40,694 nt of DNA from IMG/VR virus record IMGVR_UViG_2541047798_000002. One strand, written 5' to 3'. Source of the DNA: a virus. Its lineage: Duplodnaviria; Heunggongvirae; Uroviricota; Caudoviricetes. The position numbers were made by a program, and so were the translations under genes. Below are positions 1 through 37,648 of the stretch, one piece after another (position 1 is the stretch's first letter; the number at the start of each line of letters is the position of its first letter). Below the pieces are notes generated by a model, which saw only the letters and a program-made list of their open reading frames with translations, made no database searches and was not told the origin of the DNA.

Positions 1-1074
1 TCATTTGTCGATTTCAATTTTGTCCCATTCCCGTCCACGGCTGTCCCTATACCGCGCCGCCATTGAATCTGATTTATGCCCGAGAAGACGTTGAGCAAAC
101 TTATCGCCAATCTGGTTCCGGTATAGCCTTGCTGACAGGCTACGCAGTTCATGGAATGTTGGCGGGTTTCCATCAAATGAGAGTCCAGATGCATTTCTCG
201 CCTTTGTAAAATACTTTGATACTGTTTTCGGGGAAAGCGGATCGTGATGCTTTGATGCGATTATAGTTTCACTGCTGCTGGCCTCCCTGCATTTCTGTAG
301 TGTATCAGCCAATGAGATATTGAGCGCGTCAATCGTTAGCATTAGCGGAATGGCGAGTTTAGCCCCTGTTTTACTCTGTTCAATGTGAAGATGGTTGTCG
401 TTTATGTCTGACCATTTCATTCTGCATAAATCGCCCACTCTCTGCCCTGTAACGACAGCCAAATCCATTGCCAGCCTCAGCCAGGTTGGGAGGGGTTCGG
501 CTGCATGGTAAATTTCGACATATTCATTAGCTGTCAGCCTTGAGCGCCTTACTTCTGACTTTGCTGTGCGGGTTGCTGTTACCGGATTCGTTTCCACATG
601 TCCCTCGGCTATTGCCTCACGAAAAACGTCAACAAGGGTTGACCTGATTAATTTTGCGGAAGCTGCTTTACCTTCTGCCACGTAGGTGTTTAGCATTGCT
701 GCCACTTCTTTCGTTGATATGTCAGTGAGCGGTTTGTCCGGCAATTTTCTTCGGATCGCCCTGATTTTGCTGGCGTAGTCGAGTAGAGTTTTCGGCCTGA
801 TACCCCTCTCGCTGAGGATTGTTTCATATCGGTCAAGCCACGTATGAAGAGTGATTGCGTCAGCGCCTTTAATCCTGTCGATCAGTGACTCACGCCTGCT
901 CTCGGATAGCAACTCAATGTTGGCCTGTATAGCTTCAGTGATTGCGATTCGCCTGTCTCGGCCTAATCCAAACTCTTTACCCGTCCTTGGGTCCCTGTAG
1001 CAGTAATATCCATTGTTTCTTATATAAAGGTTAGGGGGTAAATCCCGGCGCTCATGACTTCGCCTTCTTCCCAT
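1..1074 (-). CDS. int: Lambda-type tyrosine integrase
   Basis: 357-aa ORF; N-terminus MGRRRSHERRDLPPNLYIRNNGYYCYRDPRTGKEFGLGRD and C-terminal HELRSLSARLY...LLGH...Y catalytic region match lambda Int from memory almost residue for residue; stop codon is at window position 1-3. Confidence 0.95.
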   Translation of the reverse strand: MGRRRSHERRDLPPNLYIRNNGYYCYRDPRTGKEFGLGRDRRIAITEAIQANIELLSESRRESLIDRIKGADAITLHTWLDRYETILSERGIRPKTLLDYASKIRAIRRKLPDKPLTDISTKEVAAMLNTYVAEGKAASAKLIRSTLVDVFREAIAEGHVETNPVTATRTAKSEVRRSRLTANEYVEIYHAAEPLPTWLRLAMDLAVVTGQRVGDLCRMKWSDINDNHLHIEQSKTGAKLAIPLMLTIDALNISLADTLQKCREASSSETIIASKHHDPLSPKTVSKYFTKARNASGLSFDGNPPTFHELRSLSARLYRNQIGDKFAQRLLGHKSDSMAARYRDSRGREWDKIEIDK

Positions 1075-3170: not shown

Positions 3171-3968
3171 TTAAACTGCTAGTTGCAATTGCATTTCAAA
3201 TCGGTCGCGTTGTTCACAATACGCAAGAGAACCAGGGCTATTGTGTGCCTCAATCCGTTCTACCATTAATGCTGCTCGTGTCTCTTTACTTGCAGGTGCA
3301 TAAGCCCCAGACCAGGCTTTATCAATACCGATGTTTCGAGCGACGTTCGTACTATCTGCGCTGGCTAAGGGTAATTTTGTGAATATCTGCGGATTTAACA
3401 TGCGCAATCCATGTAGTTTCGCAACCGGCTGACCATACTCATCAACAATGTGACGAATCAGGTCTTTCATTCTGGCTACCGCAAGAGTTGGGCGCTTTAC
3501 GTCATAGTCGCCACAACTACCGATAGCCACTCGCGGAAACTCATTGCACAAATGAATAAATCGCTCGTCACTTTCATTCATGTGCCACACTGGAACGCCA
3601 GCTAGTTTTCCGTGAGGCCACTCATTCAGAAGCGCATCATTTTCTTCCTCTCCGCCATCAATAACATCAGGGATAATGGCAAAATCGAATCCTGGGTGAT
3701 TCTTCCAGCGAGCAACAAACTCGTAGTAATCGCTCCAGTCGATTTTGTTTTTGCCAGCTGCTTTCCAGGCGGTGAATGCACCGTTGTCCAGTGCGAACGA
3801 CTGACAGTATTCAGCAGCGAGATTGATCTGGCCTGAATGCGCAAAACTGATAAACGCATGTCGCCCTTTCCATGCTCTCATGGCGCACGTATCAGGAGTA
3901 ATAGGCCCACCGTGATAGTGAATCATCTCACTCTCCTTTGATGCGAATGCCAGCGGCACGGGAATCAT
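3171..3968 (-). CDS. Hypothetical protein; possible TGT/DpdA-like (tRNA-guanine transglycosylase fold) enzyme
   Basis: 265-aa ORF. Segments FALDNGAF (cf. TGT LTDSGGFQ), DFAIIPDV, RVAIGSCGDYD (cf. TGT GYAVGGLAVGE) and LHGLRM (cf. LMGVG) line up in order with E. coli Tgt as recalled; no CxCxxC zinc site seen. Function call is tentative. Confidence 0.3.
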   Translation of the reverse strand: MIPVPLAFASKESEMIHYHGGPITPDTCAMRAWKGRHAFISFAHSGQINLAAEYCQSFALDNGAFTAWKAAGKNKIDWSDYYEFVARWKNHPGFDFAIIPDVIDGGEEENDALLNEWPHGKLAGVPVWHMNESDERFIHLCNEFPRVAIGSCGDYDVKRPTLAVARMKDLIRHIVDEYGQPVAKLHGLRMLNPQIFTKLPLASADSTNVARNIGIDKAWSGAYAPASKETRAALMVERIEAHNSPGSLAYCEQRDRFEMQLQLAV

Positions 3969-4698
3969 TCCATCGCTTTACTTCTTCACGAATTACGTCA
4001 ATGCATTCTTTCGAATCCATTAGGTAATCTTCATCAAAAAGCCTTTCCTGTTCGTTTTCTATCGCAACAATGATTGCTTCAACTAACTTTTGTGCCTGAG
4101 AACCACTTTCTAACTCTGCAATGCGCTTCTCTGCGGCTTCCAGCTTCTCGCGCATATCGTCAACGTACTCGACCAGAGATCCGCCAGCAGGAATTTCGCA
4201 CTCCTCGACCAGTTGGAAGTAGATATCAGCTGCGGCCCGTGTGTTGCTATGCCTAGCGTCGCCCATCTCACCTTCACGAAGAGCATCGCGTTCGGCGGTA
4301 AGATTGGCTATTTTGCTGTCTTTGCCTTCAAGCTCAACGCGCAGCTTCCCTACCGTTAGCGCAATATCCTCGTTCTCCTGGTCGCGGCGTTTGATGTATT
4401 GCTGGTTTCTTTCCCGTTCATCCAGCAGTGCCAGCACGGTAGCCGGGTTAGCCTCTGCTATGAATTCAGCGTTTGCATAAGCCTGAGCATCTGATTCAAT
4501 CAGGCAGTTAACATGACATTCCGCAATCACGCCACCGGGTTCTCCTTTCCATTTTTGACAAACAAAAACTCCTGTTAAATTGCCGTGCTGGTTAACAGAT
4601 GTATGCCCTACGATGTAGCTTCCTTTAGTTGCTTTCTCTGCCGCCTCACGCAGTACCTGATAGTTAATGTTGCTCACTGGTTGCCTCCTTTGCGCCAC
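3928..4698 (-). CDS. Ead/Ea22-like protein
   Basis: 256-aa ORF with N-terminal [19 protein letters not shown]-type segment and central coiled-coil-like acidic region, typical of Ea22-like early-left proteins. Confidence 0.55.
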
Positions 4699-4874
4699 AT
4701 CGCATTCAGATATTTGTTTTGATTCACTGACGGAAAAGAATTTCTCTTAAGCAATTCCTCTCTCGATGGCATTGGCTTTACGCGTTGGCGAATAATCATT
4801 TCTGCCGGAAGAATGCCGGGATTGTATGCAAGTCCTCTCATGGTAAATTCCTCAGTCATTACTGATAGCGCCAT
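4674..4874 (-). CDS. Hypothetical small protein (66 aa)
   Basis: ORF in the same-orientation gene string, overlapping neighbours by a few codons; no recognisable motif. Confidence 0.3.
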
Positions 4875-5148
4875 AGCGTGAGCGGTAATTACGCAGGCGC
4901 GGGTCGATATATTCAGGGAATTTGTCTATTGTCGCTTTTCGCAACGGTCTCATTGCTGTTTCGTTTGTTCGGTCCTTCTCCTGTTTTAGCGCGAGTTGTA
5001 TATCGCGTCGGTACATCCGTTCTGCTTTTGTTTCTGGTGTCAGAGCAAGAAACGCGTCGAAATTGTTTTTGATATTTTCCAGCACCTCCGCCTTGGAGCT
5101 ACCGGAGCAATTGCGCGGGTCATCCGCACCATACAGAGGCGCTGGCAT
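4852..5148 (-). CDS. Hypothetical protein (98 aa)
   Basis: ORF packed in the early-left operon; weak SD (AAGG). Confidence 0.45.
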
Positions 5149-5171
5149 AATGGGAGCCTTATTTTCAATAA

Positions 5172-5759
5172 TCAGAAAGGAGGGTAATCGTTCTGGCTGT
5201 AACCATAATCATCTGCATGATTATGGCTTACGTTTTTAGAGCGATTGTCTTTATCTTTGAGGCTGGCAACCATGTTGGCGATAGTTTCTGGTTGCTTGCC
5301 TTCCGCCTTTTCTTTAAGGGTTTGACCTGTTTGTGCAATAAACGGGATGCGTATTTCCATCTGGTAGCTGTCTGCGCCAGTCTTTTTGTTTGTGGTTAAT
5401 ACTTTCTGGAGCACTAACCCGATTTTCTTTCCATGAAACTCAGGAGCAACAAATTTACTGGCGGAAACCATATGTTGCGTTAATTGTCCAATCCCGGCAC
5501 ACCCCATCATGGCGTGAACGACATTTGCGCCAAATTTGTTTTCCGTTCCGTCATTTTTCTGAACACAGACGCTAAGATATTGGATTTTACGTCCGTCGTC
5601 AGATTCGCCAGAAAACTCAATAAATTTGGCTCCTTTTTCTGATTGCTTTAGTTCTGCTTCAGTAATGGTAATGATATGAGCACCAGTTTCGTTAATAAAA
5701 CCACCTTGCCCTGCGGTCAGTGCTGCTTCTTCGTTATAAGTAAAAATCACGTTGCTCAT
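5172..5759 (-). CDS. Putative ssDNA-binding protein partnered with Sak4
   Basis: 195-aa ORF overlapping the Sak4-like gene stop; acidic/aromatic C-terminal tail ...DDYGYSQNDYPPF reminiscent of the SSB C-terminal tail (DDDIPF); position matches Sak4-SSB pairs in P22-like phages such as HK620. Confidence 0.45.
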   Translation of the reverse strand: MSNVIFTYNEEAALTAGQGGFINETGAHIITITEAELKQSEKGAKFIEFSGESDDGRKIQYLSVCVQKNDGTENKFGANVVHAMMGCAGIGQLTQHMVSASKFVAPEFHGKKIGLVLQKVLTTNKKTGADSYQMEIRIPFIAQTGQTLKEKAEGKQPETIANMVASLKDKDNRSKNVSHNHADDYGYSQNDYPPF

Positions 5760-30736: not shown

Positions 30737-32152
30737 ATGGCTGCTTGGCAACAGGGTATTAATTCTGGTGGTTTTCTGGCTGGCATCGGTACGCAAAATG
30801 AGAATGCGCCAAAGGCAAGCGACATTAACGCAACGCTTGGTCTGATCCGCGAAAACAATGAACTGGCTCGCTCAGGTACAAATAACGTTGGTCTGACCGC
30901 GTTACGTGGTCTGGCTGGAGTTGCTGATATTTACAATCAGGAACAGCAACAGAAAGCGATTAGTGCGTTCAATAAGGTTCATGCTGATGCATGGGCTTCT
31001 GGTGATCCATCGGGACTATTTAAGTTTGCCCAGGAAAATCCAGCGTTTGTTGCACAGGCACAACAGGCGTTTTCAGGTCTTAATGATCAGCAACGCAACG
31101 ATATGGGCGATTTAGCCATGAGAGCTAACGTCGCTCTTTCTCAGGGACCGGAAGCCTACAGTAAATTCATTACTGACAACAAGGACAGGTTAAATCGCGT
31201 GGGGGCGAATGCTGACTGGATGATTCAGACAGGTATCCAGAATCCAGAGCAGCTATCACACATGCTGACTACTATGTCTCTCGGTGCGCTTGGACCAGAA
31301 AAGGCGTTTGCTGTTCAGGACAAGATGGCTGGTCGTGAAATTGACCGAGGCAGACTGGCAGAGACAATCCGCAGCAATCAGGCTGGAGAAGCACTTCAGG
31401 CGAGAGGGCAAAACCTTTCCTATCAGTCAGCAATGACTGGGCACAATATCGCAGCACAACGCTTGGCTCTGGATCAGCAAGAGTTTGGGTTTAAGATGCA
31501 GCAAGCGCAGGAAAAGGCTCAGCAGTTGATTAGCGAAGCACCTAAGCTGTCAGTAAACATGGAAAAAGGCATCGAGACGGCTGTAAACAATGCCACAGCA
31601 TCATCAAACTCAGCCAATTCCATGAGTGCGCTTGCTCAACAGTTCAGAGCAGAAAAACCAACGACAGGTTTGTTCGGTAACGCACAGAACATGTTCGCAA
31701 AACTTACCGGAAGCGATACGACATTGCGTGATTTGCGCATTCGCCAAAATGCCCTTGTTAACAGTCAGGTTCTTAAATTCCTACCTCCCGGCCCAGCAAC
31801 GGATAAAGACGTTGAGATCGTTCGACAGGGTGCGCCAACTGACATGGATAACCCTGAGACGGTCGCAAGATGGCTTGATGCAATGGCAAACCTTGAGCGA
31901 CGAAACGCGCAGTTTAATGAGTTTAAAGCCGAGTGGATGAGCGCGAATGGCAACCCTGGACAATCGCGTAATGGCGGTCAGATATTGGGGTTGGATGTTA
32001 AAAAAGGTGAATCATTGGGGAGTGCCGTTAAGCGGTATATGTCATTGAATACTGACGCAGCGCCAGCACAAGATTCGACACCTTCAGGAGAACCACGGAA
32101 TCAGGTTGGATCATATACCTCAAAATCAGGCATTCAATTTACGGTGGAATGA
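30737..32152 (+). CDS. Ejection protein, P22 gp20-like
   Basis: 471-aa ORF, same length and position as P22 gp20. Confidence 0.75.
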
Positions 32153-33990
32153 TGAAAGTTACTGCAAACGGTAAGACATTTACCTTTCCTGATGGTACGA
32201 GCACGGAAGATATTGGCACCGCCATTGATGAGTATTTTGCTGGTCAGGCTGTTCAGCAACAAACAGTTAATCAGGCCAATAATGCACCAACACGGGAAGA
32301 ACCATCATTGATGCAACAAGCTGGCGATTGGCTCACTGGTGGTCAAAGTGCAGGGCAAATTGCGGAACAGGCTGGTCGTGGTCTGGTAAACATACCATTT
32401 GACGTATTGCAGGGCGGCGCAAGTCTGATTAATGCAATCAGCCAGGGGCTTGGTGGCCCCAAGGTTTTGGACGATGTCTATCGTCCAGTCGATCGACCAA
32501 CAGACCCTTATGCGCAAGCTGGAGAAACAATTGGCGGGTATTTAGTTCCAGGAGTTGGAACGGCAGGAAGCATGGCTATTGGATCACTGGCAGAGGCCGC
32601 AAATCAGAAAGGCGATTTCGCACAAAATGCAGCTAAAAATGCCGGAGTTAACCTTGCCGCTCAGGGGGTTCTTTCCGCAGCAGCAAAGGGAATAGGGCGT
32701 GGAATAACGGCTATAAAAGGTGATATTGCGCCAGAAGTGGCGAAGAAAATTGCCACATCAGAATCGATGGGCGTGACACCAATGACATCTGATGTTATCC
32801 CGCCGAAAAATGCTTTCACTCGCGGCCTAACTCAGGATGCCGAGGGGGCTTTGCTCGGGACAGGCTCAAAGCGAGCGGAGCAATATGCAACGCGTAGTAA
32901 GCTGGTAAGTAATTATTTTGACCGTTTTGGTGAGTACAACCCTGATGATGTGGTGAAATCTCTTACCACCACGTTAAGGGGGCGGAAGGATGCCGCTGGC
33001 GCTGTTATCAATGACGTCACCAATAAAATGGGTAATGCCGCAGTTGATACCACAAATACCATGAATGCTCTGAATACAGCGATCGCAAGACAGGAACGAC
33101 TTGGGACGTCTGCCAATCAAAGCCTGCTTACATCCTTGCGTAACCTACGTGAAGAATTAGCAAACCCTGCAACTGATTTGGATGTTACGTTTGATCTCTT
33201 GCGTCAGCACAGAACAGCATTTAGATCTAATGTTCAGGGAGATGCTATGGTCTTCCCCAACCAGGCAAAAGCAGCTACCAATATGGTAGAGAATGCAATG
33301 TCAAAAGACCTTCGTAACGCAGTTGCTAAAAACCTCGGTGCATCAGACGCAGCAAAATACCTTAAAGCAAATTCCGATTATGCAAACGTTTATAATAAGG
33401 TGCTTAATAAAAACATTGCTAACAAACTCAACAAGGCAAGCAGTGAAGCCAGTCCTGAACTTATAAATACCGTTGTATTAAGCAGAAAACCATCTGACGT
33501 GAAACGAATCTGGAGCGCATTGGATAATAAAGGGAAAGATGCTATGCGTGCAGCTTATGTCAGCAAAATAGCGGAAAAGGCCGGTGACTCTCCAGCCAAG
33601 TTCATCACTGAAGTTAATAAGCTGAAATCTCAGTCAGGCGGTGAAATTTACAACACTATTTTTTCTGGAAAGCACATGAAAGAGCTTGATTCTCTTCATG
33701 AAGTTCTACAGCAAACAGCAAGGTCAGACACCGCAAATGTAGTAACTCAGACGGGGCAATCGCAAGCCAACAGGATAAGGACGATTGGCGCAACTGCGAC
33801 TCTTGGCGTATCAATGGGGCTTGAGGCTGGTTTCGGTGCAATGATGCGCTTGTATGAGTCCAAAGCAGCAAGGAATGCTCTCTTACGTTTGGCAAACACC
33901 AAAGCAGGAACACCAGCCTATGAAAGAGCGTTGAGTAACGCTGCAAATGCCATCAGACCGCTGCTTGCCACTGAGGCAACACAGCAGTAA
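32149..33990 (+). CDS. Ejection protein, P22 gp16-like
   Basis: 613-aa ORF in gp16 position (P22 gp16 ~609 aa). Confidence 0.75.
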
Positions 33991-34014: not shown

Positions 34015-34404
34015 TTAACATTTTCTTTTTACTTTTCCAACAAAAGCTTTGGTTGAATCCATATTCCCATAACCAGAAATGGTTTTCGACATTAAAACTG
34101 TTCCATTAGGATGTATTACCCATGAGTCGATAACTCGTTGAGTTTCGCCATTCGCGCCGATTCCAATGATGGAGTTTTTAGACAATGCTTTGTAAGCCAT
34201 GCCGCCCGCATCTGTCCCAGAATATGTGATGCTGGCATCTTCACTGCTTGTCTTAATGATGAATGTTCCACTAAAACCATCTTCTTCCGGATGGAAATTA
34301 TTTCGTTCTGAATAGCTTATTCCGCGCATATCTCCAACGACCCAGCACTCTGCTGTAGCCCCAAAAGATATGAATAAGAACATAGCAGCAAGAAATTGCT
34401 TCAC
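34015..34404 (-). CDS. Hypothetical secreted/periplasmic protein (129 aa, predicted signal peptide)
   Basis: GTG start with AAGGAG SD inside ORF-track ORF 34015..34620; N-terminus VKQFLAAMFLFISFGATA-ECW has a signal-peptide profile with A-x-A cleavage site; opposite strand to structural genes. Confidence 0.5.
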   Translation of the reverse strand: MKQFLAAMFLFISFGATAECWVVGDMRGISYSERNNFHPEEDGFSGTFIIKTSSEDASITYSGTDAGGMAYKALSKNSIIGIGANGETQRVIDSWVIHPNGTVLMSKTISGYGNMDSTKAFVGKVKRKC

Positions 34405-34434
34405 ACCAACCTCCTTAGTTTTGAGCAGGATACC

Positions 34435-34800
34435 ATGAAAAAAGTTAACATTGGAAACGTACCAAAGATGCTCGTTCCGCTCTTTGAGAGCGGTACAATT
34501 GTGTTTTGTAGAGACTTTCCAGAATGGCAACGCCTGCATCAAAAACTTGGCGTTGACGTGCATGACTCGGACGCCAACGGAGCGTCTCATACAATGAGCA
34601 GCGAGAATGGTGTTTTGCATGTGATAGGCGTGTTCAATGGCAAACTATCTACTATTGCCCATGAGTGCGCTCACATGGCATTCGATATCTGCTCAAGGGT
34701 CGGTGTTGATGTTGAACCAGGAAGAGCCAATGAGACTTACTGCTACTTAATGAGCAGGCTTGTTGAGTTCTGCGAGCGACATATCAAAAAGCCGGAGTGA
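34435..34800 (+). CDS. Hypothetical protein with HExxH zinc-metallopeptidase-like motif
   Basis: ATG with AGGA SD inside ORF 34396..34800; motif STIAHECAHMAFD (H-E-x-x-H); ~121 aa. Confidence 0.5.
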   Translation: MKKVNIGNVPKMLVPLFESGTIVFCRDFPEWQRLHQKLGVDVHDSDANGASHTMSSENGVLHVIGVFNGKLSTIAHECAHMAFDICSRVGVDVEPGRANETYCYLMSRLVEFCERHIKKPE

Positions 34801-34813
34801 CCCGGCTTGAGTA

Positions 34814-34993
34814 TTACTTTTTGCTGTCTGGAGTTCGCTTATCCAATACCCAGCCATGACCTGGCTTTGTTGTTGGTGGAAGCCTTTCGTTGTCCTTGAC
34901 GGTTGCAAAATTGTCTTTCTTACCGCCGCGTGGGCCAACTTCTTGGTATATTCCGCCGTTTTTTCCTGTGTTTTCACCTGGTTTTTTCGCCAT
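34814..34993 (-). CDS. Small hypothetical protein (59 aa), YjzC-like pattern
   Basis: ATG with GAGG SD; MAKKPGENTGKNGGIYQEVGPRGGKKDNFATVKDNERLPPTTKPGHGWVL; upstream TTGACT promoter-like hexamer; terminator-like hairpin (aagccgg-agtgac-ccggctt) downstream. Confidence 0.45.
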   Translation of the reverse strand: MAKKPGENTGKNGGIYQEVGPRGGKKDNFATVKDNERLPPTTKPGHGWVLDKRTPDSKK

Positions 34994-35075
34994 GATATAC
35001 CTCAACATATACCCGTTATTGGGCGATTAAATATTGATCTCATTTTATAAGTAGTCAATATGGCCCAGGTAAATG

Positions 35076-35108
35076 CAAAAATTAACCCACCGTCAGGTGG
35101 GTTTTTTT
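35076..35108. terminator. Bidirectional intrinsic terminator
   Basis: cccacc-gtca-ggtggg hairpin flanked by AAAAA and TTTTTTT. Confidence 0.6.
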
Positions 35109-35140
35109 ATCTTCTCTACTTTAAAGATTAAGGAAATACC

Positions 35141-35326
35141 ATGACCATAGAAGAACGTCTGAACAACATTGAGTTGAATCAAACCCTGCTTGACCAGCGA
35201 CTTTCAGATCTTGAGCTTAAAGATCTAGATGTGCAAATATCAGAAGCAGAAGCCAAGCTCTCCAGCTTAAACCACCGCAGGAAGCAAATCCGCGACAGAA
35301 TTACTCGTGGACGCGGAGGCTGTTAA
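35141..35326 (+). CDS. Hypothetical coiled-coil protein (61 aa)
   Basis: ATG with AAGGA SD; convergent with the ClpP-like gene; support is SD only. Confidence 0.3.
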   Translation: MTIEERLNNIELNQTLLDQRLSDLELKDLDVQISEAEAKLSSLNHRRKQIRDRITRGRGGC

Positions 35327-35403
35327 GGTGTGATGGTAATCCTTGCTCACTAAATTTAAGGATGCGAATCTTTCCGGCCATAGGAGTAATCATGATTTAC
35401 CCA

Positions 35404-35940
35404 TCAAACAACCCACCAGTTTGCCTGATTGGATACCAGCCTTGCAGTTTTTATGGAATTAATTATGCCATGCTCAAGAGCCTTGTTAGCATCCAAAATG
35501 GTCGAGTCTGCTATCAGGGATGCCCACCTAATATGGGTTCCGATGTCGATATTGAACGTCTCAACGAAGCGATCAAGATCGTTATCGAGGCATTTCCCGT
35601 ACTCTCTCAATCTGGCATGGTCGGCGGCTGGGGAGGCAAAGCACCATAATAGAGGATGTAACAGGAATCTTGATAATGGGTTTGCGAAACGTTCTGAGCC
35701 AGCCAGGAAAACGATATTAGCTATGGATTCAACATTGCTTATGTTGTGAGTTCTAACGGTAACAGGGAGTGACTTAAGAAAGTTATACGCAGTAAAGCCA
35801 GCGGCAGTTTCCCCTCCCTGACTTGATATATGGATATTTAATTCAGTTGCGCCTTGAGATAATGCGGTGAGACAGTGGTTCTGAAGTTGCCCAACAGTGG
35901 CAGTGTTAACGGGGCATAAGAAATGAATTGTGTGCAGCAT
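35404..35940 (-). CDS. ClpP-fold (S14-like) serine protease, stand-alone
   Basis: 178-aa ORF; collinear with E. coli ClpP as recalled: IHISSQGGETAAG (cf. YINSPGGVITAG), NVESIANIVFLAGSERFANPLSRFLLHP (cf. GQAASMGAFLLTAG..RF.LPNSRVMIHQP: Ser and His of the triad), KALEHGIINSI (cf. EAVEYGLVDSI). Start ATG overlaps mnt stop (TAATG). Confidence 0.65.
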   Translation of the reverse strand: MLHTIHFLCPVNTATVGQLQNHCLTALSQGATELNIHISSQGGETAAGFTAYNFLKSLPVTVRTHNISNVESIANIVFLAGSERFANPLSRFLLHPLLWCFASPAADHARLREYGKCLDNDLDRFVETFNIDIGTHIRWASLIADSTILDANKALEHGIINSIKTARLVSNQANWWVV

Positions 35941-36194
35941 TATTTATCATCCTTGCCATAAATCTTTTTAAGTGTCTCAAACACAACGGCCTTGAACTGC
36001 TCTGCTTGCTGATCAGCCAAGCGTTCAGCTTCGTCTCGATAGCCTGCAATCGGTGATGGCTTTGAGAGAGCATCCTGAACGATTTGTAATAACTCAGAGT
36101 TCATTGACCTTCCGTTAGCCTCTGCTCTTAATTTCAATTTTTCTCTTACTTCCAAAGGCATACGGAAGTTAAAGTGCGGATCGTTTCTAGCCAT
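35940..36194 (-). CDS. mnt: Mnt repressor (ribbon-helix-helix), immI
   Basis: 84-aa ORF MARNDPHFNFRMPLEVREKLKLRAEANGRSMNSELLQIVQDALSKPSP... near-identical to P22 Mnt as recalled. Confidence 0.85.
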   Translation of the reverse strand: MARNDPHFNFRMPLEVREKLKLRAEANGRSMNSELLQIVQDALSKPSPIAGYRDEAERLADQQAEQFKAVVFETLKKIYGKDDK

Positions 36195-36284
36195 GCCATC
36201 ACCCCAAGTTAGTGTATTGACATGATAGAAGCACTCTACTATATTCTCAATAGGTCCACAGTGGACCTATATTGTGAGGTAAAT
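36195..36284. promoter_or_regulatory. immI control region: Pant/Pmnt with Arc operator (ATGATAGAAGCACTCTACTAT) and Mnt operator (AGGTCCACAGTGGACCT)
   Basis: Both operator sequences match the P22 O-arc and O-mnt sequences as recalled; TTGACA-17-TATATT rightward promoter overlaps the arc operator. Confidence 0.8.
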
Positions 36285-36443
36285 ATGAAAGGAATGAGCA
36301 AAATGCCGCAGTTCAATTTGCGGTGGCCTAAAGAAGTATTGGATTTGGTGCGTAAGGTGGCGGAAGAGAACGGGCGATCTGTTAACTCTGAGATTTACAA
36401 GCGAGTGTTGGACAGCCTGAAGAGAGAGGGGATAACGGTATGA
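36285..36443 (+). CDS. arc: Arc repressor (ribbon-helix-helix)
   Basis: Internal Met of ORF 36222..36443: MKGMSKMPQFNLRWPKEVLDLVRKVAEENGRSVNSEIYKRV... matches P22 Arc. Confidence 0.85.
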   Translation: MKGMSKMPQFNLRWPKEVLDLVRKVAEENGRSVNSEIYKRVLDSLKREGITV

Positions 36444-36661
36444 GGTTTATTGAGGTTGATGAGATTGGCTATGAGAATGCACTTGGTAGAGGTAAATCTT
36501 TAGTTAACATTGATGGCATTGAATCGATAAGGAGTGGTGAATTTACGGAGATCAGAATGATGTCAGGCGGAATCATTCCTTGCCGTGATTCAGTAGAGTC
36601 AATCAAATCAAAAATGAGTGGTCAGTGGCTTTATAGCTACAGTGACTTACAAAAACAGTGA
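36440..36661 (+). CDS. Hypothetical protein (73 aa) between arc and ant
   Basis: ORF overlapping arc stop (ATGA); no motif recognised. Confidence 0.4.
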   Translation: MRFIEVDEIGYENALGRGKSLVNIDGIESIRSGEFTEIRMMSGGIIPCRDSVESIKSKMSGQWLYSYSDLQKQ

Positions 36662-36724
36662 AGCCCCAACTGCGGGAACAGTCAGGGCTTCGGTATCGTA
36701 AAACCACGCATAGGAATTAACGAC

Positions 36725-37648
36725 ATGACGAGTGTAGCAATTGCAGAACATACAATCAACGTTCCATTCCACGGAACAAATCTCTTTTTGGTCAGCATTA
36801 ACAATGAACCTTACGTTCCTATGAAACCCGTTGTAGAAGGCATGGGTATGGTTTGGGCTGCTCAATTTGTTAAATTAAAACAGAGATTTGTCAAAGGTAT
36901 TTCGGAAATCGAAATACCTTCTGCTGGCGGTAAACAGTTAATGATATGCCTTGCCTTTCGTAAGTTTGCGGCTTGGCTTTCAAGCATTCAGCCAAACAAA
37001 GTCCGCCCTGAAATCCGCGACAAGGTAATCCAGTATCAGGAAGAGTGTGACGATGTGCTCTACGAGTACTGGACTAAAGGTCATGTAGTTAACCCACGCA
37101 AAGCTAAAAAGGCGTTGCCGAGTAAAATTACCACTGAACAGCAGGAAGCCATTAAACAACTCGTCATGAGTCGCGGTCAGTCTCTGCCAAAAGAAAAACA
37201 GGCGAAGGCAATGATTACCATGTGGTCGTCACTGAAATCTCATTTTGGGTGTTCATACAAAGAAATCAGCGAGGAGCAGTTTACCGAAGCTCTGTCACTT
37301 GCAGCTCGCGTTCCGCTTGAAGGTGAGTTTATCGGCAAACAAGAGAAGAAAACCAACGAGCTTTCTGCAAAAGAAGCAAACAGCCTTGTATGGTTATGGG
37401 ATTATGCCAACCGTTCACAGGCATTATTCCGCGAACTGTATCCGGCGCTAAAACAAATTCAATCGAACTATTCCGGCAGATGCTACGACTACGGTCATGA
37501 GTTCTCGTATGTTATCGGAATGGCGAGAGACGTTTTAATCAATCACACACGAGATGTTGATATTAATGAGCCAGACGGACCAACGAATCTTTCCGCATGG
37601 ATGAGACTTAAGAATAAAGAATTACCTCCTTCAGTACATAACTACTGA
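36725..37648 (+). CDS. ant: Antirepressor Ant (P22_AR N-terminal domain type)
   Basis: 307-aa ORF downstream of arc in immI; N-terminal region [39 protein letters not shown] typical of P22-type antirepressor N-domain. Confidence 0.7.

What the first reader, a model, noticed from the sequence alone, without database searches (positions are those of the whole stretch)
35404..36194. Stand-alone ClpP-fold serine protease translationally coupled to the immI repressor mnt
Seen in sequence: the 178-aa ORF aligns collinearly with ClpP motifs (INSPGG-like IHISSQGG; Ser-containing GxAAS-like VESIAN; RF..P.SR...H-P with His; C-terminal E.G..DSI-like EHGIINSI), i.e. a truncated S14-type protease core without the ClpP N-terminal gating region. 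Its ATG overlaps the mnt stop codon (TAATG), so it is co-expressed with mnt in the lysogen. Established knowledge: in P22 the region downstream of mnt holds sieA (superinfection exclusion); P22-like phages have no prohead protease and this gene is not in the head module or on the late strand. Inference: a lysogen-expressed protease occupying the sieA slot, candidate exclusion/defence effector or regulator (for example degrading incoming antirepressor or ejection proteins).
Basis: partly seen in the sequence, partly recalled or inferred. Interest (0 to 1): 0.75.

Follow-up and report, generated by a model that had tools for sequence, protein, structure and literature searches.

The report
Prophage-borne truncated ClpP in mnt operon
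A P22-like prophage of E. coli carries, fused to the end of its Mnt repressor gene, a short gate-less relative of the cell's ClpP protease; the protein family is already annotated and one Pseudomonas member has a solved structure, but why a phage makes it in the lysogen is unknown.

Summary
ORF 35404..35940 (-), 178 aa, is a real ClpP-fold protein: Pfam CLP_protease E=2e-11, above cut-off; AlphaFold pLDDT 92.6. Its ATG overlaps the mnt stop (TAATG).

Its closest solved relative is PpClpP1 of Pseudomonas plecoglossicida (PDB 9UXT; E=2e-35, TM 0.93, 38% identity). That protein is an N-terminally truncated tetradecamer with a wide pore. It is a weak Ser-His peptidase, does not bind ClpX, and forms a more active hybrid with the canonical ClpP.

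The window protein keeps that Ser and His (S72, H95). It has no catalytic Asp, no N-terminal gate, and polar residues in place of the ClpX/ClpA docking pocket.

The gene evolves under strong purifying selection (dN/dS 0.08) and is present in 128 of 5426 complete E. coli genomes. In this clade it always follows an Mnt-family gene with the same overlap, although the Mnt alleles differ. More distant relatives stand alone between lysis and terminase genes, on the strand opposite the late genes.

Compared with P22 it is an ~840-bp insertion between mnt and orf59a, not a replacement of sieA.

Best reading: a lysogen-expressed accessory ClpP isoform. A role in defence or exclusion is untested.

The parts
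35404..35940 (-). clpP-like gene, 178 aa: PpClpP1-type truncated ClpP with Ser72/His95, and Ser146 at the position of the canonical Asp
   Evidence: Purifying selection, dN/dS 0.08.
35940..36194 (-). mnt, 84 aa, the immI maintenance repressor. Its stop codon overlaps the clpP-like ATG.
   Evidence: Pfam Arc + Repressor_Mnt; 79% identical to P22 Mnt.
35938..35954 (-). Translational-coupling junction AAGGATGATAAATAATG: Shine-Dalgarno AAGGA at 35950..35954, TAA stop at 35940..35942, ATG at 35938..35940
   Evidence: Sequence. The same junction is found in nearly all (about 40) intact loci of the >=79% clade, despite >=6 Mnt alleles.
35104..35945 (.). Approx. 840-bp segment absent from P22: alternative last codons of mnt, the clpP-like gene, and ~300 bp carrying a + strand 61-aa ORF (35141..35326)
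   Evidence: Alignments A2 and A3 with P22; PHROG 7586 for the 61-aa ORF.
36222..36250 (-). Pmnt-like promoter (TTGAGA-17-TATCAT), overlapping Pant face to face
   Evidence: the position matches the P22 annotation and the sequence is P22-like.
36217..36245 (+). Pant-like promoter (TTGACA-17-TATATT)
36285..36443 (+). arc
   Evidence: Pfam Arc E=6e-26. The start at MKGMSKMPQF is set by comparison with P22 arc.
36657..36723 (-). sar antisense RNA
   Evidence: Rfam RF00262, 76.6 bits against a cut-off of 43.
36725..37648 (+). ant antirepressor
   Evidence: Pfam P22_AR_N + P22_AR_C.
35084..35103 (.). GC-rich hairpin shared with P22, where it contains the mnt stop codon. Terminator-like on the + strand, weaker on the - strand.
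34814..34993 (-). orf59a homologue (59 aa from MAKKPGE; YjzC-like), the last gene of the mnt operon
   Evidence: ~97% DNA identity to P22 orf59a; PHROG 3202; Pfam YjzC below threshold.
34789..34808 (-). Terminator equivalent to the annotated P22 mnt terminator
   Evidence: P22 annotation; alignment.

Best explanation
The gene encodes an accessory ClpP isoform of the PpClpP1 type, carried as prophage cargo (a 'moron').

**The protein.** Shown: it has the ClpP core without the N-terminal axial gate. It keeps a Ser72-His95 pair and the oxyanion Gly, has no catalytic Asp, and has polar residues where canonical ClpP has the hydrophobic pocket that receives the ClpX/ClpA IGF loops.

**Expression.** Inferred from the anatomy and from P22 immI knowledge: it is translated by coupling to Mnt from the Pmnt transcript (mnt, clpP-like, orf59a, Tmnt). 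It is therefore made at a low steady level in the lysogen. It should be shut off in lytic growth by Arc and by antiterminated late transcription running antisense to it.

**Mechanism.** Inferred from the 38%-identical PpClpP1: it assembles into a double-heptamer barrel with a wide-open pore. This barrel is a weak, ATPase-independent Ser-His peptidase and cannot dock ClpX or ClpA itself. One of its rings stacks on a ring of the host's single ClpP, giving ClpX/A-hostClpP7-phageClpP7 hybrids with altered and probably higher activity.

**Net effect.** The prophage turns a one-ClpP cell into a two-isoform ClpP1P2-like cell and so retunes Clp-dependent proteolysis in the lysogen. Which substrates matter, and whether the benefit is stress fitness, lysogen stability or exclusion of other phages, is not known.
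For: **Fold and family**
- Sequence and structure matches.
- Ser72, His95 and SSxGG are invariant across 38 homologues from 32 to 88% identity.
- The third triad position is Ala or Ser family-wide, and the IGF-pocket residues Y60, Y62, F82, I90, L114, L189 become N, H, S, H, N, K.

**Biochemistry of the homologue PpClpP1** (PMC12900304)
- Homotetradecamer with a 42.7 A pore.
- S73A and H96A abolish activity, while changing the third residue does not.
- No ClpX pull-down.
- The ClpP1P2 hybrid is more active, with and without ClpX.

**The gene is functional**
- dN/dS is 0.08 against the Pectobacterium allele.
- 127 E. coli genomes carry it at >=99% nucleotide identity.

**Cargo behaviour**
- In the P22-like and lambda-like backbones it sits in the mnt operon.
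- In other lambdoid prophages it stands alone with its own Shine-Dalgarno between Rz/LysC and terminase on the opposite strand, which is the position bor holds in lambda.
- In every prophage locus where late genes were identified nearby it is antisense to them.

**Operon anatomy:**
Against: - Nothing was measured for this protein: not its expression, oligomeric state, activity or partners.
- Hybrid formation is extrapolated from a relative that is 38-40% identical and was tested with its own Pseudomonas ClpP. E. coli ClpP may not pair with this protein.
- The Pseudomonas subfamily is chromosomal, next to KGG stress-protein genes, and not phage-borne. Its biology may not transfer.
- The strict linkage to mnt in one clade, and the movement of ant-arc-mnt-clpP as a unit into a lambda-like tail region, could instead point to a function specific to immI.
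Confidence: 0.5

Rival explanations
1. Dedicated superinfection-exclusion or defence effector. The gate-less barrel degrades unfolded proteins delivered by incoming phages (ejection proteins, early proteins), or triggers abortive proteolysis on infection.
For: - It is inferred to be lysogen-expressed and antisense to late genes.
- It sits in cargo hot spots that also hold sieA in P22 and Panacea-domain genes in E. coli relatives.
- A wide pore would admit unfolded chains without an ATPase.
Against: - No match in PADLOC, and no paper links this family to defence.
- PpClpP1 has only weak activity alone.
- The Pseudomonas subfamily is a chromosomal gene in a stress-gene neighbourhood, not in defence islands.
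Confidence: 0.2
2. Post-translational arm of immI. The protease removes antirepressor (leaky self Ant, or Ant from heteroimmune superinfecting phages) and so protects the prophage from unscheduled induction.
For: - In the >=79% clade the gene is always coupled to an Mnt-family gene. The Mnt alleles vary (>=6 N-termini, 35-100% identity) while the clpP-like gene stays 97-100% identical.
- The ant-arc-mnt-clpP module moves as a unit into a lambda-like phage.
Against: - Relatives at 52-74% identity sit in prophage regions where none of the Mnt, Arc or Ant markers was found.
- P22 itself maintains immI without this gene.
- There is no evidence that Ant is a substrate.
Confidence: 0.1
3. Weakly active or decoy subunit that poisons host ClpP. 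Mixed complexes lower ClpXP/ClpAP activity and so stabilise a phage or host protein, such as a repressor or antitoxin.
For: - It has no catalytic Asp and no ClpX/ClpA docking pocket.
- PpClpP1 alone is 13-fold less active than the canonical paralogue.
Against: - Ser and His are invariant family-wide, which would not be expected of a pure decoy.
- In the one tested case the hybrid was more active, not less.
Confidence: 0.1
4. Decaying remnant of a ClpP-type prohead protease picked up from another phage, with no present function.
For: - The best PHROG hit is 'head maturation protease' (phrog_94, E=7e-21).
- One GenBank record labels it that way.
Against: - NCBIfam Clp_rel_HeadMat scores 49 bits against a cut-off of 120.
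- The gene is outside the head module and on the opposite strand, and the P22-type head needs no protease.
- dN/dS is 0.08.
- It is intact and near-identical in more than 120 E. coli genomes.
Confidence: 0.02

Closest known systems
PpClpP1 of Pseudomonas plecoglossicida (PDB 9UXT; PMC12900304)
   Same: - Full-length homology (E=1.8e-35; 38-40% identity; TM 0.93, rmsd 1.7 A).
- Same length class (178 vs 183 aa) and the same N-terminal truncation.
- The same aligned catalytic Ser and His, with a non-acidic third position.
- The same loss of ClpX-pocket residues.
   Different: - The third position is Ser146 here (Ala/Ser across the enterobacterial family), where PpClpP1 has Pro.
- PpClpP1-type genes are chromosomal, next to KGG and DUF6555 genes. 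This gene is prophage cargo coupled to a repressor gene.
- The host here, E. coli, otherwise has a single ClpP.
- There is no biochemistry for this protein.
Second ClpP isoforms that work only as hetero-tetradecamers: P. aeruginosa ClpP2, Listeria ClpP1, M. tuberculosis ClpP1P2 (from memory of the literature; structures 4RYF and 4U0G appear among the fold hits)
   Same: - A paralogue with a defective N-terminus or triad that gains its function by stacking on a canonical ClpP ring.
- Listeria ClpP1 also lacks the Asp (it has Asn).
   Different: - Only about 20% identity.
- Those isoforms are chromosomal and about 200 aa long, with N-terminal regions.
- None is phage-borne or tied to an immunity operon.
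Canonical E. coli ClpP (P0A6G7; 1TYF, 3MT6)
   Same: The ClpP fold (TM ~0.82), collinear motifs, the catalytic Ser and His, the oxyanion Gly, and a full-length handle helix.
   Different: - About 20% identity.
- Lacks the propeptide and axial loops (~38 residues), the Asp171 equivalent and the hydrophobic IGF-loop pocket.
- Has a family-specific C-terminal NWWV tail.
- Fails the NCBIfam ClpP equivalog models by a wide margin.
ClpP-related phage head maturation proteases (NCBIfam NF045542; PHROG 94)
   Same: An S14 fold without ClpP N-terminal loops, encoded by phages.
   Different: - Scores below the family cut-off.
- Not in the head module and on the opposite strand.
- This phage has a protease-free, P22-type head assembly.
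Lysogen-expressed morons in the same slots: P22 sieA/orf59a, lambda bor
   Same: The position and orientation are those typical of prophage-expressed cargo.
   Different: - No sequence or fold relationship.
- SieA and Bor are envelope proteins, whereas this is a cytoplasmic protease-fold protein.

Membership tests
Pfam CLP_protease (PF00574) / MEROPS S14 fold | Profile score above the gathering threshold | tested here: met
   44.4 bits against a cut-off of 20.2, E=2.2e-11, covering residues 24-165.
Pfam CLP_protease (PF00574) / MEROPS S14 fold | Catalytic Ser and His at the aligned positions, plus the oxyanion Gly | tested here: met
   S72=S97, H95=H122, G43=G68. All three are invariant in 38 homologues.
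Pfam CLP_protease (PF00574) / MEROPS S14 fold | Catalytic Asp completing the triad | tested here: not met
   D171 aligns with Ser146, and the family has Ala or Ser there. In PpClpP1 this residue is dispensable.
Canonical ClpP orthologue (NCBIfam TIGR00493 / NF001368) | Equivalog score above the cut-off | tested here: not met
   19.2 against 308.6, and 31.1 against 249.
Canonical ClpP orthologue (NCBIfam TIGR00493 / NF001368) | N-terminal axial loops/gate and the hydrophobic pocket for ClpX/ClpA IGF loops | tested here: not met
   About 38 N-terminal residues are absent. Pocket residues are replaced by N35, H37, S57, H65, N87, K164. The list of pocket residues is from memory of the ADEP/ClpX-ClpP structures.
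PpClpP1-type truncated ClpP (9UXT) | Full-length sequence and fold similarity, with the N-terminal truncation | tested here: met
   E=1.8e-35 over residues 3-175; TM 0.93.
PpClpP1-type truncated ClpP (9UXT) | Homotetradecamer with a dilated pore and weak Ser/His-dependent peptidase activity | not testable with these tools
   Only a monomer model could be made. The handle helix (108-132) is present.
PpClpP1-type truncated ClpP (9UXT) | Hybrid tetradecamer with the host's canonical ClpP; no direct ClpX binding | not testable with these tools
   Inferred only from PMC12900304 and from the loss of the pocket.
ClpP-related phage head maturation protease (NF045542) | Profile score above the cut-off; gene in the head module on the late strand | tested here: not met
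   49.3 against 120. The head module runs portal, scaffold, coat without a protease, and this gene is on the opposite strand about 8.6 kb downstream of the coat gene.
   No S49 family is listed even at E<=10.
Known anti-phage defence systems (PADLOC-DB v2) | Match to any defence-protein model | tested here: not met
   0 families at E<=1 for both the ClpP-like protein and Mnt.
Type II toxin-antitoxin pair (RHH antitoxin + downstream coupled toxin) | Obligate pairing of the two genes across the family | tested here: not met
   Relatives at 52-74% identity have no upstream coupled ORF and carry their own Shine-Dalgarno.
P22 immI region | Face-to-face Pant/Pmnt promoters, mnt, arc, sar RNA and ant in P22 order | tested here: met

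The most novel reading that the evidence does not exclude
A temperate phage equips its lysogen with a second ClpP ring. This ring hybridises with the host's only ClpP and redirects ClpXP/ClpAP proteolysis, forming a proteolysis-based immunity layer attached to the immI repressor operon. It might, for example, destroy incoming antirepressor or ejection proteins, or stabilise lysogeny. That would be a new class of prophage-encoded host-protease remodelling, present in about 2% of E. coli genomes and enriched in K1 ExPEC/APEC lineages.
Probability: 0.12. Interest if true: 0.8.

Novelty: new variant of a known kind. Interest (0 to 1): 0.45.

Why it matters
E. coli is treated as an organism with a single ClpP. 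In about 2.3% of complete genomes a prophage adds a second, gate-less isoform, and many of the listed carriers are K1, ExPEC or APEC strains such as S88, IMT5155 and ST95 isolates. This isoform is probably made only in the lysogen.

If it hybridises with host ClpP, as its Pseudomonas relative does, prophage carriage would change Clp-dependent turnover of substrates such as RpoS, antitoxins and phage regulators. That could affect stress tolerance, virulence and phage-phage competition.

The finding also places the recently characterised PpClpP1 'paralogue' in a family that circulates on prophages. The practical value is modest until a phenotype is shown.

Tried and rejected
- **Defence-system models.** PADLOC gave no hit.
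- **Literature.** I searched for phage-borne ClpP homologues, P22 immI plus Clp, PF00574 plus defence, and CUS-3 plus Clp. Nothing relevant turned up. The only pertinent paper came through the PDB code 9UXT.
- **Is PpClpP1 itself prophage-borne?** No. Its subfamily is chromosomal, beside KGG and DUF6555 genes.
- **A universal RHH/Mnt partner (toxin-antitoxin-like pair).** Rejected, because distant clades lack it.
- **Head-protease relic.** Rejected on context, profile score and selection.
- **S49 relationship.** Not seen.
- **BFVD fold search.** It returned only generic viral ClpP-like proteins at <=25% identity, none closer than 9UXT.
- **Genome-contig scan.** It returned only 11 loci and included distant members from Massilia, an archaeal MAG and others that add little.
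- **Multimer or hybrid modelling.** Not possible with the tools.
- **Minor discrepancy.** The paper numbers the PpClpP1 proline as Pro151. By my count along the aligned chain it is residue 150.

Full report

Yes. The minus-strand ORF 35404..35940 encodes 178 aa. The gene directly upstream on the same strand, 35940..36194, is mnt. It has Pfam Arc plus Repressor_Mnt domains and is 79% identical to P22 Mnt.

The junction reads AAGGATGATAAATAATG. The TAA stop of mnt shares its last A with the ATG, and an AAGGA Shine-Dalgarno lies 9 nt upstream, inside mnt.

The ClpP relationship is statistically solid:
- Pfam CLP_protease E=2.2e-11, 44.4 bits against a gathering score of 20.2.
- phmmer against the PDB gives E=1.8e-35 to 9UXT and 1e-7 to 1e-3 to dozens of canonical ClpPs.
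- An AlphaFold2 model built on 38 homologues has mean pLDDT 92.6.
- Foldseek gives TM 0.93 / rmsd 1.7 A to 9uxt_A and TM about 0.82 to E. coli, S. aureus, Listeria and M. tuberculosis ClpPs.

I verified the E. coli sequence against PDB 3MT6.

**2. What kind of ClpP is it?**

Alignment to E. coli ClpP shows the following:
- Ser72 = Ser97, His95 = His122, Gly43 = oxyanion Gly68.
- The catalytic Asp171 position is Ser146, and Ala or Ser across the family.
- About 38 N-terminal residues (propeptide and axial gating loops) are missing.
- The residues I recall as forming the pocket for the ClpX/ClpA IGF loops (Y60, Y62, F82, I90, L114, L189) are N35, H37, S57, H65, N87, K164.

Across 38 homologues of 32-88% identity, Ser72, His95 and the SSxGG motif are invariant, and a C-terminal NWWV tail is conserved.

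NCBIfam models for true ClpP (19-40 bits against cut-offs of 228-361) and for ClpP-related head maturation proteases (49 against 120) are all failed. PADLOC has nothing.

The closest characterised protein is PpClpP1 of Pseudomonas plecoglossicida (PDB 9UXT). According to PMC12900304:
- It is N-terminally truncated and forms a homotetradecamer with a 42.7 A axial pore.
- It has a Ser73-His96-Pro 'triad'. Ser and His are essential, and the third residue is dispensable.
- It is 13-fold less active than the canonical paralogue and does not bind ClpX.
- It forms a heterotetradecamer with the canonical ClpP that is more active, with and without ClpX.

Ser72 and His95 of the window protein align exactly with Ser73 and His96.

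**3. Genomic anatomy**

The window is essentially a whole P22-like prophage:
- Integrase at 1..1074.
- Terminase, P22 portal, scaffold and P22 coat with no protease gene.
- gp16 at 32149..33990.
- A tailspike that is an endosialidase, so the phage is K1-capsule-specific and CUS-3-like.

The immI region is complete:
- Face-to-face promoter-like sites at 36217..36250.
- mnt and arc.
- sar RNA at 36657..36723 (Rfam, 76.6 bits).
- ant.

Alignment with P22 shows that window 34410..35103 is about 97% identical to P22. This stretch runs from the sieA start codon through PsieA, the annotated mnt terminator and orf59a, to the hairpin that in P22 contains the mnt stop codon. The mnt-Pmnt/Pant-arc region is also P22-like.

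Between these two stretches the window has about 840 bp that P22 lacks (35104..35945). It contains:
- a different set of final mnt codons;
- the clpP-like gene;
- about 300 bp with a 61-aa ORF on the + strand.

The operon is therefore Pmnt, mnt, clpP-like, orf59a, Tmnt (34808..34789). The gene is an insertion into the mnt operon. It does not replace sieA. The sieA slot itself is taken by another gene, 34015..34410 (-), which starts at the sieA GTG (PHROG 2651).

**4. Distribution and context elsewhere**

128 of 5426 complete E. coli genomes carry the gene at >=95% nucleotide identity, 127 of them at >=99%. All copies are chromosomal. PGAP names them 'ATP-dependent Clp protease proteolytic subunit', and they lie next to an 'Arc family DNA-binding protein'. 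About 48 further genomes have a distant paralogue.

I surveyed 105 loci from phage records, genomes and IMG/VR.

*Clade at >=79% protein identity (E. coli, Pectobacterium).*
- The gene is always directly downstream of an Mnt-family gene.
- Nearly all (about 40) intact copies have the identical TAATG overlap and Shine-Dalgarno; one locus (L057) has a 1-nt deletion at the junction.
- The Mnt proteins fall into at least six N-terminal alleles, 35-100% identical to the window's Mnt.
- The recombination breakpoint lies in the last ~25-40 nt of mnt.
- The module occurs both in P22-like backbones and in a lambda-like siphovirus backbone. In the latter, ant-arc-mnt-clpP sits between tail genes L and K (PhiR12_1).

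*Relatives at 52-74% identity (Leclercia, Klebsiella, Rahnella, Enterobacter, a second E. coli type).*
- The gene stands alone with its own Shine-Dalgarno.
- Where flanking genes could be identified, it most often lies between the lysis cassette and terminase, on the opposite strand. By my knowledge of lambda, this is the position bor holds there.

*The PpClpP1 subfamily.*
- It is chromosomal in many Pseudomonas species, next to KGG small stress-protein genes and DUF6555, and not in prophages.

*Selection.* dN/dS between the window allele and the Pectobacterium allele is 0.08.

**5. Most likely function and mechanism**

What is shown:
- This is a conserved, selected ClpP-fold protein.
- It has a Ser-His pair but no gate and no unfoldase pocket.
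- It is carried as prophage cargo, antisense to the late genes wherever those were identified nearby.
- Here it is translationally coupled to Mnt.

What is inferred from P22 immI knowledge: Pmnt is active in the lysogen, while Arc and antiterminated late transcription silence it in lytic growth. The protein should therefore be specific to the lysogen.

What is inferred from PpClpP1: it forms a wide-pore tetradecamer with weak autonomous peptidase activity, and one of its rings can pair with a ring of the host's ClpP. In effect this gives E. coli a ClpP1P2-type protease.

I put about 0.5 on this 'accessory ClpP isoform that retunes host Clp proteolysis in the lysogen'. The downstream benefit is open.

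Rivals:
- A dedicated exclusion or defence effector (0.2).
- An immI-specific protease that removes antirepressor (0.1). The mnt linkage and module mobility favour it. Relatives in prophage regions where no Mnt, Arc or Ant gene was found argue against it.
- A dominant-negative decoy (0.1). The invariant Ser and His, and the more active Pseudomonas hybrid, argue against it.
- A dead head-protease relic (0.02), effectively refuted.

**6. Novelty and verdict**

The ClpP homology is already in public annotation, and the protein family now has a solved and assayed member. The protein as such is therefore not new.

Three things I could not find described:
- The family circulates as prophage cargo.
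- In one clade it has been inserted into the immI mnt operon with conserved translational coupling across diverse Mnt alleles.
- About 2% of E. coli genomes thereby have a second ClpP isoform.

I rate it a new variant of a known kind and moderately interesting (0.45). Its interpretation is partly supported: the fold, the coupling and the lysogen logic are right, the 'sieA slot' is wrong, and the defence role is untested.

Noticed in passing
window 34015-34410 (-): The true sieA slot is occupied by a different gene. At the P22 sieA GTG start codon the sequence switches to a 131-aa ORF with a signal-peptide-like N-terminus (VKQFLAAMFLFISFGATAEC...). It belongs to PHROG 2651, function unknown, and keeps the P22 sieA promoter and RBS region.
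   Followed up: partly
window 34435-34800 (+): A 121-aa ORF with an HExxH motif (IAHECAHMAF), PHROG 1365, function unknown. It lies in DNA ~97% identical to P22 between sieA and orf59a, which the P22 reference record BK000583 does not annotate.
   Followed up: partly
window 34814-34993 (-): The P22 orf59a homologue is a YjzC-like small hydrophilic protein (Pfam YjzC below threshold, PHROG 3202) and is the last gene of the mnt operon. In Pseudomonas the PpClpP1-type genes are flanked by KGG small stress-protein genes and DUF6555 (L106-L110). This may be a parallel.
   Followed up: no
window 35141-35326 (+): A 61-aa coiled-coil-like ORF (PHROG 7586) on the late strand, inside the ~840-bp insertion and convergent with the clpP-like gene. 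The Pmnt transcript would run antisense to it.
   Followed up: no
window 36440-36661 (+): An extra 73-aa ORF between arc and ant. Its ATG overlaps the arc stop (ATGA). It belongs to PHROG 11805, function unknown, and is absent from P22. The sar RNA (36657-36723) begins at its 3' end.
   Followed up: no
window 37749-40694 (+): The tailspike has a P22 head-binding domain fused to endosialidase domains and an S74 chaperone domain. This makes it a K1-capsule-specific, CUS-3-like prophage. The window ends exactly at its stop codon.
   Followed up: partly
loci L001-L004, L016, L026-L058 (mnt upstream of the clpP-like gene): At least six different Mnt N-terminal alleles (35-100% identity) are joined to a 97-100% identical clpP-like gene. 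All share the same last ~25-40 nt of mnt, which suggests that immI specificity is shuffled by recombination at a fixed breakpoint.
   Followed up: partly
L002 (Escherichia phage PhiR12_1, PV340549.1) 3525-5537: The whole ant-arc-mnt-clpP-like module sits between tail genes L and K of a lambda-like siphovirus. About ten IMG/VR loci (L033, L034, L039-L043, L049) show the same Ant and Mnt alleles, and most of them have no P22 tailspike nearby.
   Followed up: partly
L003 5081-5948 and L004 5071-5520 (E. coli IMT5155, B1_2): In related E. coli prophages the gap between gene 16 and the clpP-like gene holds a Panacea-domain gene, alone or with a partner. The gap is therefore a variable cargo hot spot.
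   Followed up: no
alignment A1, C-terminus (window protein residues 174-178): A family-specific C-terminal NWWV motif (W175 conserved in >=90%) that canonical ClpP lacks. The model places it as a terminal beta-strand. Its role is unknown.
   Followed up: no
L061, L063, L075 (IMG/VR): A few copies of the clpP-like gene are truncated or interrupted: only residues 40-178, 62-178 or 56-178 match, and in L063 mnt is displaced ~1.4 kb. The gene is therefore occasionally lost.
   Followed up: no
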